64,000 nucleotides of DNA from Phycisphaeraceae bacterium (GTDB lineage Bacteria; Planctomycetota; Phycisphaerae; Phycisphaerales; UBA1924), in NCBI GenBank assembly GCA_019636795.1, contig JAHBWW010000006.1, positions 39,253 to 103,252 on the forward strand, written 5' to 3'. A program made the translations under genes and the position numbers. The notes beneath the pieces were generated by a model. The model ran no database searches, had not been told where the DNA came from, and saw only the letters and a list, made by a program, of their open reading frames with translations. Below, in pieces: positions 45,386-49,172 of the stretch. How positions within the stretch are numbered: the stretch's first letter is position 1; each line of letters begins with the position of its first letter.

Positions 45386-45496
45386 GATGCACACCTGCGG
45401 GGGAAATGCAAGAGGGAAGCGTGGAAGGGACGGAATGTTGCGCGCGCGGGTGGGAGATGCGGAGGGAATTGTGGGCAGCGGGGAGGTGGGATGGGG

Positions 45497-45594
45497 GTTG
45501 TTGGCAGGGGTGTTACAAGAGACCAAGACACACCGACCGCTCAGAGCCGCGGATCGGTGGCACGGGGATCGACGGTTTTGGTCGGTGTCACCTG
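45497..45594 (+). repeat. REP-like double-hairpin element, copy 1 (with 5' extension TTGTTGGCAGGGGTGTTACAAGAGACCAAGA)
   Basis: CACACCGACCGCTCAGAGCCGCGGaTCGGTGGCACGGGGATCGACGGTTTTGGTCGGTGTCACC. One base is inserted in the first stem. Confidence 0.9.
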
Positions 45595-45625
45595 CCTATC
45601 CTGCCCGCAACAAGAAGCCAAAGGG

Positions 45626-45690
45626 CACACCGACCGCTCAGAGCCGCGGTCGGTGGCACGGGGGATCGACGGTTTTGGTCGGTGCCACCC
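45626..45690 (+). repeat. REP-like element, copy 2
   Basis: CACACCGACCGCTCAGAGCCGCGGTCGGTGGCACGGGGGATCGACGGTTTTGGTCGGTGCCACC. Stem 1 is CACCGACCGC/GCGGTCGGTG; stem 2 is GGTGGCAC/GTGCCACC. Confidence 0.9.
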
Positions 45691-45729
45691 GCCATCACCA
45701 TTATTGAGCACGTCAATCTCCCATAAATC

Positions 45730-46341
45730 ATGCCATACACACTATTTACATCTCCAGTCGGCTTTAACTGTATCGAGATGACTCGAACGCAGGCAAAGCA
45801 ATTTTTTGAGCATTTCATGAATCAAATGCCGGAGCGTATCCAAATGTTGAGCCTTGAAGTTCGTGAGACATCCGGTTTTGAGGCATGGATTCCGGATGGG
45901 AGTGAACAATCTGTTCTTGGACTTGGGTTATGGCTCAAAGATCAAGCCAAAGCTCGGGAACTCACTGAGGAAGACCGTCAACAAATTGGTATTATCGACG
46001 ACAATCCGCTAAACGAGTGGATTGCAAGAACTCACATCGAAATGTCTGCAAAAACTTACTCGTACAGCATAGATTCTGGCATGTACTTCGGGGAAATTAT
46101 TCGAACCCGTCATCCGGCTACCGCGTGGCGGATCGGGTCAAAACCTAAGCGCGGAGTGAATTATAATCGTCCAGTCGTTGCGACGGAGGATGATTATTTT
46201 ATTATTGATCCAGTTGGGTGGATAGCCAATAGTCTTCATGGCTATTTATTGTATCGTCATGGAGTACCCGGATACGCGTCTGCCAGGAATTTTGACTTGT
46301 TGCGTGACCTGCATGAAAGAGAGCGTCATATTCAGCGATAG
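45730..46341 (+). CDS. hypothetical protein encoded by a conspicuously AT-richer gene
   Basis: 203-aa ORF with an ATG start. Normal mixed composition (K, E, I, N, F, Y frequent), unlike neighbouring genes. No motif recognised. Confidence 0.6.
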   Translation: MPYTLFTSPVGFNCIEMTRTQAKQFFEHFMNQMPERIQMLSLEVRETSGFEAWIPDGSEQSVLGLGLWLKDQAKARELTEEDRQQIGIIDDNPLNEWIARTHIEMSAKTYSYSIDSGMYFGEIIRTRHPATAWRIGSKPKRGVNYNRPVVATEDDYFIIDPVGWIANSLHGYLLYRHGVPGYASARNFDLLRDLHERERHIQR

Positions 46342-46483
46342 GGATCGGAATTGATCAGTTTTACGAGCAATGATACGTATTGTCATTGCCCTTCTGATCT
46401 TGGTCTTTGTTTGTACAACGTTTCCTGATCTCTCTATCTCCCATGACGGCATGAACTGGCTAGTGTGGGTGTGCGTGGACGGC

Positions 46484-46554
46484 AGGTGGCACCGACCGTC
46501 GACTTGGATTGACTTCTTCGTGCCACCGACCGCGGCTTTAAGCGGTCGGTGTGT
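46484..46554 (-). repeat. REP-like element, copy 3 (inverted orientation, divergent spacer)
   Basis: Reverse complement: CACACCGACCGCTTAAAGCCGCGGTCGGTGGCACGaagaagtcaatccaagtcgaCGGTCGGTGCCACC. Confidence 0.85.
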
Positions 46555-46579
46555 TTTCGAGTGAGTCAGTTCGATCGGT

Positions 46580-47260
46580 TCATACATATCCCTCCCACAT
46601 GGCCCAGGCGCGGGGGTCGCCTGGCGGCCAATCGCATGGGACATCTGCTGGATCCTGCTCGTGGCTTCGCTGGCGTGCGAACCACCATCGCGCACTTGAC
46701 CAGCGCCAATCGAGCGGCGCTGCGACCAGACCTCGTGCGACCGGGTTGTGGTGTGTGTAGCGAATGGCTTTATTAAGTTCGGTCTGCTCGCGAACATTGC
46801 GGTCGAAGCCGCCGCCCTTCTGCCAGAATCGGGTCGCTCCATCGGCCCGGACGATCTCTGACGCGAGCGGATCGCCTGAGTGTCGAAGGAAACGAAGAAC
46901 ACGTTGCTGGATCGAGAGTTTAAGGGATTTGAGAACAGGAGCAAGCGGGGATCCGTCAGGTGGAATGAGGAGAAGGTGGGTGTGTTCGGGCATGGCGACC
47001 CAGGCCAGCAACTTGAAGCTCAGTCGGTCTCTGGCTTCGCGGAGCGAACGTGCGAAGAGATCGCGAGCGTCGGGGGAGCCGAGCAGCGGGAGCCGACGTT
47101 CGCAGGAGAATGTTATAAATCGGACGCCGCCCGGAACCTCGCGGCGGGTCATGTGTTTTCGTATGGGATGTGGACTACCGCTCGCATCCGAGGTTGTAGG
47201 CTTGGAGGAGGATGTGGCTTCAGGTCGGGGGTCGCTGTTCATCGCTGCAGCATACCGCAT
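46580..47260 (-). CDS. REP-associated tyrosine transposase (RAYT; IS200-like Y1 HUH transposase family)
   Basis: GGVRFITFSCERRLPLL, MPEHTHLLL (HUH), AIRYTHHNPVARGL (catalytic Tyr + HxNP), WRWSS. Start uncertain: ATG at 47260, 47242 or 47152; the track GTG is at 47320. Confidence 0.8.
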   Translation of the reverse strand: MRYAAAMNSDPRPEATSSSKPTTSDASGSPHPIRKHMTRREVPGGVRFITFSCERRLPLLGSPDARDLFARSLREARDRLSFKLLAWVAMPEHTHLLLIPPDGSPLAPVLKSLKLSIQQRVLRFLRHSGDPLASEIVRADGATRFWQKGGGFDRNVREQTELNKAIRYTHHNPVARGLVAAPLDWRWSSARWWFARQRSHEQDPADVPCDWPPGDPRAWAMWEGYV

Positions 47261-47317
47261 CCGTCGGAGGGGAAATGGATGTGCATTGCGGATGGAACGG
47301 GTTGAAGGTGGGGAAGG

Positions 47318-47380
47318 CACACCGACCGCTCAAAGCCGCGGTCGGTGGCACGGGGGATCGACGGTTTTGGTCGGTGCACC
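47318..47380 (+). repeat. REP-like element, copy 4
   Basis: CACACCGACCGCTCAAAGCCGCGGTCGGTGGCACGGGGGATCGACGGTTTTGGTCGGTGCACC. Abuts the 5' end of the RAYT ORF. Confidence 0.9.
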
Positions 47381-47390
47381 CGCCGGGGAG

Positions 47391-47461
47391 GGGATTGTTG
47401 GCAGGGGTGTTACAAGAGACCAAGACACACCGACCGCTCAGAGCCGCGGTCGGTGGCACGG
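47391..47461 (+). repeat. REP-like element, copy 5 (5' extension as in copy 1; only the first hairpin is present)
   Basis: GGGATTGTTGGCAGGGGTGTTACAAGAGACCAAGACACACCGACCGCTCAGAGCCGCGGTCGGTGGCACGG. Confidence 0.85.
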
Positions 47462-47737
47462 TGAGCGTGGATGGCGAGGGGTGGTTGGTGCCACAACGCT
47501 GTTGGCGCGGGAATCTGGAGTTGTGGGAGAGGGATGAGGCTTTGTGAACTTTCGTTTCCTCTGCCCCTTCGGGGCAGGGTTGGAGAGATGCGGGTCTGTT
47601 CCACGGGTTGCGCTGCGCCCGGCTGGGGCCGGGCTGCGCTTCACCCGTGGCTACAAGCCTTCGCCCCTTCGGGGCGAGGACGTGCGGGAGCGTAATGGGT
47701 ACGACTGCGCGAGCTGATCGGCTGCGAGTCGTGGCGC

Positions 47738-47870: not shown

Positions 47871-47962
47871 ACGGGTGTTGTCGCACCGAAGTCGCAGAGC
47901 CGACTTCGGTGGCACGCCGACATCGTGGCACGGGTCATGAGACGGTTCGAAAGGGCGAAGAC

Positions 47963-48025
47963 ACACCGACCGCTCAGAGCCGCGGTCGGTGGCACGGGGG
48001 ATCGACGGTTTTGGTTGGTGTCACC
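47963..48025 (+). repeat. REP-like element, copy 6
   Basis: CACACCGACCGCTCAGAGCCGCGGTCGGTGGCACGGGGGATCGACGGTTTTGGTTGGTGTCACC. Confidence 0.9.
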
Positions 48026-48048
48026 AGCCGGAGAGAGTGGTCGGAGAA

Positions 48049-48070: not shown

Positions 48071-48226
48071 CTTGGGGGTCGGGTGGGTTTGGTGTTGGGC
48101 ATCATGGATGTTCATGATGGGCCTTGGGCGGCGTATTGCAAGGGGTTTTGGAGGTTGGGTCGGGAACTTGCGAGCGTGGGGGGATGGGGGGAGATTTTGG
48201 GGAGGTCGGGTTGAAGTCGGGGAAGG

Positions 48227-48289
48227 CACACCGACCGCTCAGAGCCGCGGTCGGTGGCACGGGGATCGACGGTTTTGGTTGGTGTCACC
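48227..48289 (+). repeat. REP-like element, copy 7
   Basis: CACACCGACCGCTCAGAGCCGCGGTCGGTGGCACGGGGATCGACGGTTTTGGTTGGTGTCACC. Its 3' end supplies the stop codon of the PPTase ORF. Confidence 0.9.
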
Positions 48290-49172
48290 AGCCGGAGAGA
48301 GTGGTCGGAGAACCCAGGGATTGGGATCCCTGGGCTTGGGGGAGTGTGGTTGGAGAACCCAGGGATTGGGATCCCTGGGCTTGGGGGTCGGTGGCATGGG
48401 GAGGGTGGATGGCGAGTGCGGCGGTGTGGGCAGGGTCGGCGGGATCGAGTGCGAGGTTGGTCAGGTGGATGGGTGCGGGGCTCTTGAGCGCGTTGGGGCT
48501 GGGGAGCGCGACGGTATTGCGGCTGGGCAGTGCGACGGCACCTGGGCTTGGGGGAATGACGGTATTGGGGCTGGGGAGCATGATGGTATCGGGGCGGGTG
48601 TCGATGGTTTGGGGGTTGGTGGCGAAGCCGGTGCCGAGGGCTTTGAGGAGGGCTTCTTTGCGGGTCCAGAGTTGGAAGAAGTGCTGCGGTTGTGCGGTGG
48701 GCGGGAGTGCGGCGTGGGCTGCGAGTTCGTCCGGGTGCATGAAGATGCGGGCGGCGTCGAGGGTTGCGTGGGCGGGGTCGATGTGGGCCAGGTCGATGCC
48801 GAGGCGGCGGTGCGGGGCGAGCGCGAGGGCGGCGATGTTGCCAGCGGACGCGGTCGAGAGGTGGATGTGTGTGAGGTGATGGGGGGCGGTGATGGTGGGG
48901 CAGCCTAGGGCGTCGTGGGTGATGCGGATGTCGGCGGGGGCGAGGTTGAAGGTGCGGGCGATGAATTGGGTGCGCCACCAGCGGCGGCAGATGAAGCGGG
49001 CGCGGTGAAGACCAGAGCGCAGCGATGCGGCGCGGGTTTGCTCGGCTGGGTCGAGGGTTGCGGCGAGGGCGTCGAGGGGTTCGCTTATGGTGTCGAGCGC
49101 GATCATGGCGGTCAGGACGCCATCGAAGGGCTCGGGCAGCGCGAGGGGCGAGGTGGAGAGTGCGAAGGTCAC
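48285..49172 (-). CDS. Sfp-type 4'-phosphopantetheinyl transferase (with repeat-encoded C-terminal tail)
   Basis: RRLGIDLAHI and FFQLWTRKEALLKALGTG, the PPTase motifs. Lies 30 nt downstream of the NRPS stop. GTG start at 49172 (alternative ATG 49106). Confidence 0.85.
   Translation of the reverse strand: MTFALSTSPLALPEPFDGVLTAMIALDTISEPLDALAATLDPAEQTRAASLRSGLHRARFICRRWWRTQFIARTFNLAPADIRITHDALGCPTITAPHHLTHIHLSTASAGNIAALALAPHRRLGIDLAHIDPAHATLDAARIFMHPDELAAHAALPPTAQPQHFFQLWTRKEALLKALGTGFATNPQTIDTRPDTIMLPSPNTVIPPSPGAVALPSRNTVALPSPNALKSPAPIHLTNLALDPADPAHTAALAIHPPHATDPQAQGSQSLGSPTTLPQAQGSQSLGSPTTLSGW
48313..48334. repeat. palindromic hairpin repeat, copy b
   Basis: CCCAGGGAT-tggg-ATCCCTGGG. Confidence 0.9.
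48358..48379. repeat. palindromic hairpin repeat, copy c
   Basis: CCCAGGGAT-tggg-ATCCCTGGG. Confidence 0.9.
48498..48617. repeat. imperfect 24-bp tandem repeat x5 inside the PPTase ORF tail
   Basis: Units GCTGGGGAGCGCGACGGTATTGCG / GCTGGGCAGTGCGACGGCACCTGG / GCTTGGGGGAATGACGGTATTGGG / GCTGGGGAGCATGATGGTATCGGG / GCGGGTGTCGATGGTTTGGGGGTT. Confidence 0.7.

What the first reader, a model, noticed from the sequence alone, without database searches (positions are those of the whole stretch)
45691..46483. AT-rich foreign-looking gene cassette sandwiched between inverted REP copies next to rayT
The 203-aa ORF at 45730-46341 and its downstream spacer are visibly much AT-richer than everything around them. 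They have many A/T third positions and frequent K/N/I/F/Y codons. The segment is delimited by REP copy 2 (forward, ending 45690) and REP copy 3 (inverted, starting 46484). Beyond copy 3 lies rayT. This looks like cargo captured or mobilised between REP hairpins, or a REP-rich recombination hotspot that accepted foreign DNA. I cannot assign a function to the protein (MPYTLFTSPVGFNCIEMTRTQAKQFFEHFMNQMPERIQML...). Its size and context would suit an orphan immunity-type protein, but that is speculation.
Basis: partly seen in the sequence, partly recalled or inferred. Interest (0 to 1): 0.6.

Follow-up and report, generated by a model that had tools for sequence, protein, structure and literature searches.

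The report
Orphan toxin-immunity gene inside REP/RAYT cluster
A 787-base piece of foreign, AT-rich DNA wedged exactly between two mirror-image hairpin repeats next to their transposase gene carries an intact antidote gene against an RHS-type bacterial toxin, with only the last ten codons of the toxin gene left. It is an ordinary kind of gene in an unusual and possibly recurring setting.

Summary
Window 45694-46480 has 45.8% GC against 61.9% for the window (z = -5.6, the lowest stretch of that size). The ORF's GC3 is 43% against 80-85% in neighbouring genes. The segment abuts the 3' ends (CACCNGCC) of two inverted REP copies, and beyond the second lies a RAYT gene that passes NCBIfam's cut-off.

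The 203-aa ORF belongs to an unnamed family of about 200-aa proteins (587 cluster representatives, no Pfam model). In five independent metagenome loci its relatives sit directly behind one conserved C-terminal toxin domain of RHS proteins, or behind a stub of it. In the window, the 11 codons before the ORF (AITIIEHVNLP*) are the tail of that toxin. So this is an orphan RHS immunity gene. Low GC is a trait of such toxin/immunity modules in every host examined.

How it got between the REPs is not settled. No close relative of the locus was available, and the whole-genome tools were shut. Two loci with homologous RAYT/REP systems (L058, L060) also hold RHS toxin/immunity cassettes bounded by REPs. 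This keeps open, at about 20%, that RAYT/REP systems capture such cassettes.

The immunity fold model is confident (pLDDT 95.5) and has no match in PDB or BFVD.

The parts
45527..45596 (+). REP copy 1 (double hairpin, slightly degenerate), preceded by a 40-nt linker that recurs at 47385-47423
45624..45693 (+). REP copy 2. Its 3' end ...GTGCCACCCGCC abuts the insert. It is 98% identical to REP4.
45691..45726 (+). Stub of an RHS toxin gene: the last 11 codons, AITIIEHVNLP, plus the TAA stop. The first codon overlaps the REP end. It matches the C-termini GITVIEHVNLP* (L087), GITIIEHTSLP* (L001) and GITIVEHVNQ* (L004).
45730..46341 (+). Intact 203-aa immunity gene of an unnamed family. The public gene call of 174 aa starts at Met30, but relatives align from residue 1-3.
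46342..46480 (.). AT-rich non-coding tail of the insert. No supported similarity to anything fetched.
46481..46558 (-). REP copy 3, inverted and the most divergent copy. Its 3' end (GGCAGGTG on the + strand) abuts the insert. Hairpin 46524-46551 plus TGTTTTC is terminator-like for the + strand.
46580..47260 (-). rayT (REP-associated tyrosine transposase), with HUH motif PEHTHLL and Tyr motif IRYTHHNP. The longest ORF runs to 47320, into REP4, so the likely start is Met21 at 47260.
47316..47383 (+). REP copy 4. Together with REP3 it forms the inverted pair around rayT.
47424..47490 (+). REP copy 5 (second hairpin diverged)
47960..48028 (+). REP copy 6
48225..48293 (+). REP copy 7

Best explanation
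The insert 45694-46480 is a fragment of an RHS polymorphic-toxin locus. It holds the last 11 codons of a toxin gene, the complete cognate immunity gene (203 aa) and 139 nt of downstream spacer.

Inferred function: the protein stays in the cytoplasm and binds the roughly 110-aa C-terminal toxin domain that neighbouring bacteria deliver on RHS proteins. That domain carries a restriction-endonuclease-like E...D...ExK motif, so it is probably a nuclease, and binding would block it. Because this locus has no toxin gene, the gene acts as an orphan ('cheater') immunity gene that protects without arming the cell.

Its low GC is the usual composition of RHS tip/immunity modules, which circulate horizontally.

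It sits inside the REPtron, the cluster of REP hairpins around the single rayT gene. It most likely arrived by illegitimate or hairpin-provoked recombination in that repeat cluster. The exact route is not shown.

Shown: composition, borders, family membership, and the toxin-immunity gene order in relatives. Inferred: binding and neutralisation, nuclease activity of the toxin, expression, and mode of arrival.
For: Composition is an outlier.

The family is large. A single-sequence search found 587 representatives at E<=1e-3, mostly 185-210 aa, and all nearly invariant residues are present in the window protein. The AF2 model has pLDDT 95.5 and pTM 0.91.

Gene context of relatives:
- L087-89: the relative overlaps by 4 nt the stop of a protein of at least 1604 aa with RHS_repeat (49.7 bits).
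- L004-09: the relative starts 10 nt after a toxin that carries the RHS core end ...GRFMQADP...NPWGRSDPLGL.
- L001: same toxin tail.
- L091: the relative follows a partial copy of the toxin domain in an array with Imm27 and an RHS gene.
- L084: an orphan copy behind a 40-aa toxin stub, inside an RHS array.
- L003: a relative fused to an RHS remnant, behind an RHS core end (48.8 bits, TIGR03696).
- L085: next to an Imm26 gene.

The same toxin domain ends six RHS proteins of 1824-2804 aa. Its motif GE..L...R.VDQ...HESKVG is conserved.

The window stub AITIIEHVNLP* lies 3 nt before the ATG.

Low GC is a module trait. In L087, GC falls from 65% to 47% at the DPxGL border and to 38% in the immunity gene, then returns to 65%. 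The immunity gene is below its contig's GC in all 7 loci checked.

No RHS gene or further toxin piece is in the 64-kb window.
Against: - There is no experimental datum for any member of the family.
- Pfam, NCBIfam and PADLOC give nothing for the window protein. Only weak family-level hits exist, to DUF6278 (11 of 100 members) and WapI (1 of 100).
- Three of the relatives' contexts show no toxin locus: L092/93, the P0126 contig and L090.
- The toxin's fold is not established. The AF2 model has pLDDT 55. Tox-REase-3 is hit by 1 of 6 sequences at E 0.018, below the cut-off.
- No sigma-70-like promoter lies upstream, and there are no RNA data.
- Whether the rest of the genome encodes the cognate toxin could not be checked.
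Confidence: 0.72

Rival explanations
1. Active capture or mobilisation by the RAYT/REP system. RayT cuts single-stranded DNA at the foot of REP2 and REP3 (after CACCNGCC). It then either joined a foreign single strand between them, or moves the unit REP-cargo-REP as an oversized REPIN. On this reading the identity of the cargo (an orphan RHS immunity gene) stays the same, and only the route differs.
For: - Both ends of the insert coincide with complete REP 3' ends facing inward.
- REPs occur nowhere else in the 64 kb, so the insert lies within the REPtron itself.
- L058 has a RayT 47% identical and a homologous REP, with the same loop GCTCAAAGC, compensatory stem changes and the same GGCCACCCGCCG end. 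There an RHS tip plus a 37%-GC small ORF is bracketed in the same way by a 75-nt inverted REP pair.
- In L060, three low-GC ORFs behind an RHS gene are separated by REP copies and end at rayT.
- The RHS core-end motif occurs in 2 of 30 RayT loci against 0 of 44 control loci.
- TnpA-REP joins any 3'-OH oligonucleotide to a cleaved REP flank in vitro (PMC8266576).
- Earlier notes of this scan describe similar cases in other Planctomycetota. These are leads only.
Against: - No second copy, no empty site and no circular or excised form was seen.
- The cleavage site of this RayT is unknown.
- A REP border is by definition the point where copies diverge, so exact abutment is partly circular.
- REPtrons are reported not to transpose as units (PMC6006769).
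- The control loci come from other phyla.
- L058 and L060 were picked from only 16 loci with usable flanks. REPs, RHS arrays and IS elements (L058 has an IS481-type transposase) may simply share 'junkyard' regions.
Confidence: 0.2
2. Erosion of a larger island. A longer RHS orphan toxin/immunity array once lay here. REPs multiplying around rayT inserted into it, and REP-REP deletions removed the rest, leaving one gene between two REPs.
For: - The fragment is cut at arbitrary points of the donor locus, inside the toxin's last codons.
- The orphan copy in L084 likewise keeps a toxin stub of 40 aa.
- REP2 and REP4 are 98% identical direct repeats, and the linker 45488-45552 recurs at 47385-47449. 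This shows duplication or recombination among the REPs.
- The region from the tRNA-Glu gene to rayT is accessory and is not syntenic in 83%-identical relatives.
Against: No other AT-rich or RHS-derived remnant exists outside the two REPs or anywhere in the 64 kb. Two independent deletions would have to end exactly at REP ends.
Confidence: 0.15
3. The ORF is not an immunity gene. It would be a family of other function, such as a regulator or stress protein, that merely often neighbours RHS loci. Alternatively the copy here is a dead remnant.
For: No functional data exist. Three relatives lie outside toxin loci. There is no fold match to any known immunity protein. No promoter was found.
Against: - Tight coupling (-4 to +10 nt) to one specific toxin domain is seen in loci whose immunity proteins are only 34-48% identical to the window's.
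- Relatives occur in arrays with Imm26 and Imm27.
- Solitary copies are expected for immunity genes.
- The 203-codon frame is open in 46%-GC DNA and keeps all conserved residues.
Confidence: 0.08
4. Assembly chimera: a foreign read cluster was joined into the MAG contig at repeats.
For: The window comes from a metagenome-type assembly, the borders lie at repeats, and the left junction has no independent read support.
Against: Both flanks are the host's own REPs. An exact 151-nt unitig in run X1 crosses insert/REP3/rayT. A chimera would need the foreign organism to carry the same REPs on both sides of a 787-bp piece.
Confidence: 0.03

Closest known systems
Orphan immunity genes and orphan toxin/immunity modules of RHS and CDI loci (polymorphic toxin systems; Zhang et al. 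2012, PMC3482391; orphan modules described by Poole et al. 2011 and Koskiniemi et al. 2014, cited from my own knowledge)
   Same: A small gene lies directly behind a variable C-terminal toxin tip. It has low GC relative to the host, and a short 3' stub of the toxin gene is retained. Solitary copies occur in genomes without the toxin.
   Different: The immunity family and its toxin tip have no Pfam model. Here the module lies not behind an rhs gene but between two REP hairpins inside a REPtron.
REPtron / REPIN-RAYT systems (Nunvar 2010 PMC2817692; Ton-Hoang 2012 PMC3333891; Bertels & Rainey 2011 PMC3116915; Corneloup 2021 PMC8266576)
   Same: A single rayT gene is flanked by inverted REPs and further REP copies cluster around it. 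The REP is a double hairpin. The RayT passes the NCBIfam model.
   Different: Known REPINs have spacers of tens of bases and carry no gene. Here an inverted REP pair encloses 787 bp with a foreign gene. This REP has no GTAG foot and ends in CACCNGCC.
Restriction-endonuclease-fold toxin tips (Tox-REase-1 to -10) with their immunity families such as Imm7 and SUKH (PMC3482391)
   Same: The cognate toxin has an E...D...ExK pattern at an RHS C-terminus. One of six sequences touches Tox-REase-3.
   Different: That hit is below the Pfam cut-off (15.8 bits against 25). The motif spacing differs from the published Tox-REase-3 signature ([KR]ExD, K, ExQxK). The immunity protein is neither Imm7 nor SUKH.
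Gene-capture platforms for immunity genes: integron cassettes, and the recombinase-associated acquired interbacterial defence clusters of Bacteroidales (Ross et al. 2019, cited from my own knowledge)
   Same: Foreign immunity genes are collected beside a recombinase and delimited by repeats. L060 looks like a small array of this kind.
   Different: There is no tyrosine recombinase of the integrase type and no attC. The enzyme would be an HUH Y1 transposase acting on single-stranded hairpins. Capture is not shown.
Pfam DUF6278 and WapI-like immunity family
   Same: Weak sequence hits for some family members (11 and 1 of 100).
   Different: The window protein itself does not hit either, and no member reaches a convincing score (best E 2.4e-5).

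Membership tests
Immunity protein of an RHS polymorphic toxin | The gene lies immediately downstream of, and co-oriented with, the variable C-terminal toxin domain | tested here: met
   Relatives in L087-89 (4-nt overlap), L004-09 (10-nt gap), L001 and L091. Toxin stubs lie before the gene in L084 and in the window.
Immunity protein of an RHS polymorphic toxin | The upstream protein is a true RHS protein, with RHS repeats and a core end ...DPxGL before the tip | tested here: met
   L087: RHS_repeat 49.7 bits against a cut-off of 22. L003: TIGR03696 48.8 bits against 32.5. Six RHS proteins of 1.8-2.8k aa end in the same tip. For L004/5 the core-end hit is below the cut-off (E 0.004), but the motif is visible.
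Immunity protein of an RHS polymorphic toxin | Toxin and immunity co-vary as a pair | tested here: met
   One toxin domain (57-61% identity among L087, L004 and L001) pairs with relatives that are 34-48% identical to the window protein.
Immunity protein of an RHS polymorphic toxin | Binds and neutralises its toxin | not testable with these tools
   Needs co-expression and pull-down.
Orphan immunity gene | No intact cognate toxin gene beside it or elsewhere in the genome | tested here: inconclusive
   None in the 64-kb window; only an 11-codon stub remains. The rest of the genome could not be searched.
RAYT (REP-associated tyrosine transposase) | Y1 HUH protein that matches the family model, with HUH and Tyr motifs | tested here: met
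   NF047646 89.2 bits against a cut-off of 80. The motifs PEHTHLL and IRYTHHNP can be read in the translation. Pfam Y1_Tnp gives only 18.3 bits, below its cut-off of 23.
REPtron | rayT is flanked by inverted copies of a palindromic repeat that is repeated nearby | tested here: met
   REP3 (-) and REP4 (+) flank rayT, and 7 copies lie within 2.8 kb.
REPIN (mobile inverted REP doublet) | Two inverted REPs separated by a short spacer, present in many copies in the genome | tested here: not met
   REP2 and REP3 are inverted, but the spacer is 787 bp and holds a gene. Genome-wide copy number could not be counted. No other copy lies in the window outside 45.5-48.3 kb.
Tox-REase-3 (PF15647), for the cognate toxin | Match to the family model above its gathering score | tested here: not met
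   1 of 6 tips hits, at 15.8 bits against 25. No PDB sequence match. The AF2 model is too poor for a fold search.
Known immunity folds (solved structures) | Structural similarity to a solved or viral predicted structure | tested here: not met
   Foldseek best E is 1.4 with TM 0.35 in PDB and 0.8 with TM 0.18 in BFVD, despite pLDDT 95.5. No AlphaFold DB library was on hand.

The most novel reading that the evidence does not exclude
In Planctomycetota, RAYT/REP systems act as a single-strand gene-capture or shuttle device for RHS toxin/immunity cassettes. RayT cuts at the REP foot (CACCNGCC) and joins foreign single-stranded DNA between inverted REPs. REPtrons thereby collect orphan immunity genes, as an integron-like platform built on an HUH enzyme. 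The window, L058 and L060 would be three snapshots of this process.
Probability: 0.18. Interest if true: 0.8.

Novelty: new variant of a known kind. Interest (0 to 1): 0.42.

Why it matters
Taken alone, the gene adds one more immunity family, paired with one more RHS toxin tip, to a long list. Both are large, unannotated and now defined by sequence. The immunity protein has a confident fold with no solved relative, which makes it a reasonable structural target.

The setting matters more. REP/RAYT systems are regarded as domesticated, vertically inherited elements that move only their own hairpins. A foreign gene seated exactly between inverted REP feet inside a REPtron, with parallel cases at homologous RAYT/REP systems, points to a testable idea: these enzymes may also take up passenger DNA. 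If so, they would give bacteria a route to acquire protection against neighbours' toxins.

Tried and rejected
- Pfam, NCBIfam and PADLOC on the 203-aa protein gave no hit.
- A PDB sequence profile search gave only noise. Foldseek against PDB and BFVD gave no match.
- Presence/absence in relatives could not be done:
  - A genome-contig scan with the protein found nothing.
  - DUF2961-anchored loci at 83% aa identity are not syntenic beyond that gene and hold no REP, rayT or cassette.
  - RayT relatives in metagenomes reach only 57% identity.
- The whole-genome search was shut. This ruled out a REP census, a search for the cognate toxin and a search for second copies.
- I first thought the downstream tail (46342-46480, small ORF MIRIVIALL...) was the start of the next RHS fragment, as in L001. 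Shuffling tests do not support this (DNA 202 of 500 shuffles reach the score, protein 34 of 1000), and blastn finds nothing. I dropped the idea.
- The AF2 model of the toxin tip from 3 sequences was too poor (pLDDT 55) to search with.
- Sequencing runs: only one low-depth DNA run holds the stretch. There is no RNA and no joined (empty-site) form.
- The CACCAT string just inside the L058 and window junctions looked like shared microhomology. In the window it is part of the conserved toxin codons and it is absent from other REP flanks, so I treat it as coincidence.

Full report
**1. The observation**

The stretch is the sharpest compositional outlier in the window.
- Its GC is 0.458. The window mean is 0.619 and the sd for 793-nt windows is 0.029, so z = -5.6. 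No other such window falls below 0.53.
- The ORF 45730-46341 is open for 203 codons.
- Its GC3 is 0.43. GC3 is 0.80-0.86 in the PEP-mutase, DUF2961, HTH, PPTase and NRPS genes around it, 0.61 in rayT and 0.71 in the McrB-like gene.

The repeat is real.
- The core pattern has six matches at 3 or fewer mismatches where none is expected. One more degenerate copy exists. All seven lie between 45.5 and 48.3 kb.
- Aligning the seven copies with their flanks shows that similarity ends after CACCNGCC.
- REP2 therefore ends at 45693 and the inverted REP3 starts at 46481. The insert is 45694-46480 (787 bp) and abuts a complete REP 3' end on each side.

The ORF beyond REP3 is a RAYT.
- It scores 89.2 bits against NCBIfam REP_Tyr_transpos, whose cut-off is 80.
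- It has readable HUH and Tyr motifs.
- It is flanked by REP3 and REP4 in inverted orientation. This is the classical REPtron layout.

**2. What the ORF is**

The curated libraries are silent on the window protein. In the 5.8-billion-protein word-indexed search it has only two close relatives, at 53% and 46% identity. The exhaustive HMMER search finds 587 cluster representatives at E<=1e-3, nearly all 185-210 aa. None carries a name.

In a 100-member alignment W68 is invariant and ten further positions are at least 90% conserved. All are present in the window protein. Relatives align from residue 1-3, so the 203-aa reading is right. The public 174-aa call, which starts at Met30, is too short.

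AlphaFold2 on this alignment gives a confident alpha+beta model (pLDDT 95.5, pTM 0.91). Foldseek finds nothing similar in PDB (best E 1.4, TM 0.35) or BFVD.

**3. Context gives the function**

- L087-89: the relative P0008 (34% identical) overlaps by 4 nt the stop of a protein of at least 1604 aa with RHS repeats (49.7 bits). Its C-terminus reads ...NPWMRSDPAGL, followed by a tip of about 250 aa ending ...ELRAALQRAGITVIEHVNLP*.
- L004-09: P0004 (48% identical) starts 10 nt after a homologous tip ending ...GITIVEHVNQ*, behind ...GRFMQADP...NPWGRSDPLGL.
- L001: P0003 follows ...GITIIEHTSLP*.
- L091: P0009 follows a partial copy of the same tip. The array also holds Imm27, a second copy of the tip and an RHS gene.
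- L084: P0005 is an orphan behind a 40-aa stub of the tip (...TLRRAVITVVEHINL*, E 3e-4). It lies after another RHS toxin and that toxin's own immunity gene.
- L003 and L085: relatives sit in an RHS array and beside an Imm26 gene.

The tip also ends six RHS proteins of 1824-2804 aa.

In the window, the 11 codons before the ORF read AITIIEHVNLP and are followed by a stop 3 nt ahead of the ATG. The insert is therefore a toxin stub plus an immunity gene.

Three relatives lie in unrelated contexts. Free-standing copies are expected for immunity genes.

**4. The toxin**

Across nine sequences the tip conserves GE..L..LGG.SQV...T..G.R.VDQ.....HESKVG...WHFF.SP.TG. This is an E...D...ExK pattern like that of restriction-endonuclease-fold toxins. 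The support is weak:
- One of six tips touches Tox-REase-3, at 15.8 bits against a cut-off of 25.
- There is no PDB sequence hit.
- The AF2 model is poor, at pLDDT 55.

'Nuclease' is therefore an inference.

**5. Why it is AT-rich**

In L087, GC drops from about 65% to 47% at the DPxGL border and to 38% in the immunity gene. It then returns to 65%. In all seven loci checked the immunity gene is below the GC of its contig. Low GC is thus a property of these circulating modules. It shows foreignness to the host core genome, but it does not reveal a donor or a date.

**6. How it came to lie between REPs**

This is not resolved.
- No close relative of the locus exists in the collections. DUF2961-anchored loci at 83% aa identity share nothing else with this region.
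- RayT relatives reach at most 57% identity.
- The genome tools were shut.

The REP cluster shows internal duplication. REP2 and REP4 are 98% identical direct repeats, and a 65-nt linker+REP block recurs at 45488 and 47385.

Notes from earlier agents of this scan describe orphan immunity genes between REP pairs in other Planctomycetota. Prompted by them, I examined the 30 RayT loci fetched. Sixteen have at least 2.5 kb of sequence, and two of those carry RHS modules.

- L058: an RHS 3' fragment plus tip plus a 37%-GC 159-aa ORF is bracketed by a 75-nt inverted repeat. That repeat is a homologue of the window's REP. It has the same loop GCTCAAAGC, compensatory stem changes and the same GGCCACCCGCCG end facing the cargo. 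A further copy near the L058 rayT has the very stem of the window's REP.
- L060: an RHS gene with a Peptidase_M76-like tip is followed by three low-GC ORFs. Each is separated from the next by a 66-nt REP, and the series ends at rayT.

The RHS core-end motif occurs in 2 of 30 RayT loci (143 kb) and in 0 of 44 control loci (696 kb). The controls are mostly from other phyla, so this is only suggestive.

The published biochemistry makes capture conceivable. TnpA-REP cleaves beside REPs and joins any 3'-OH single strand to the cut in vitro (PMC8266576). In some E. coli strains the REPtron locus is replaced by a toxin/antitoxin operon (PMC6006769). [quoted passage not shown]

**7. Verdict**

- Identity as an orphan immunity gene of an RHS toxin, on a foreign module inside a REPtron: about 0.7-0.8.
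- Route of arrival:
  - passive recombination in the repeat cluster is the default;
  - erosion of a larger array: about 0.15;
  - active RAYT/REP capture: about 0.2;
  - assembly chimera is unlikely, because an exact unitig crosses the right junction.

The gene itself is an ordinary kind of thing. The architecture is a variant not described for REPtrons, and it recurs often enough to deserve a proper survey.

Noticed in passing
L058:100-2240: In a metagenome contig whose RayT is 47% identical, a 75-nt inverted pair of homologous REPs brackets an RHS 3' fragment, its toxin tip and a 37%-GC 159-aa ORF. After a third REP come a DUF6258 gene (158 bits) and an IS481-type transposase.
   Followed up: partly
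L060:23-6645: An RHS gene with a Peptidase_M76-like tip is followed by three low-GC ORFs. Two of them end in CxxC...CPECG motifs. Each ORF is separated from the next by a 66-nt REP copy, and the array ends at a rayT gene. It looks like a REP-punctuated cassette array.
   Followed up: partly
window 45730-45817: The public gene call for this ORF (174 aa) starts at Met30. Relatives conserve Tyr3 and Pro9, so the true start is 45730.
   Followed up: yes
window 46580-47320: The GC3 of rayT (0.61) is well below that of the core genes around it (0.80-0.86). The longest ORF runs into REP4, so the real start is probably Met21 (47260).
   Followed up: no
window 45488-45693 and 47316-47449: REP2 and REP4 are 98% identical direct repeats. 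They flank the 1.6-kb unit of insert, REP3 and rayT. A 65-nt linker+REP block is shared at 95% identity. Recombination between these copies could delete or duplicate the whole unit.
   Followed up: partly
window 46524-46560: The first hairpin of REP3, read on the + strand, is followed by TGTTTTC. It looks like an intrinsic terminator for the immunity gene.
   Followed up: no
L091:1-8200: A polyimmunity-type array holds Imm27, several unnamed small ORFs, two copies of the same toxin tip (one inside a 455-aa ORF) and an RHS/YD-shell gene downstream.
   Followed up: partly
L010 (RHKP01000005.1): A contig labelled 'Cyanobacteria bacterium CYA N2_1' encodes a DUF2961 protein 84% identical to the window's, the same level as the two Phycisphaerales/Planctomycetota MAGs. 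It may be a mis-binned planctomycete contig.
   Followed up: no
L084:4877-5090: The orphan relative P0005 seems to have lost its start codon. The conserved N-terminus (..YGLYQSPVGFEVD) is readable upstream of the called Met but has no ATG/GTG/TTG in frame nearby.
   Followed up: no
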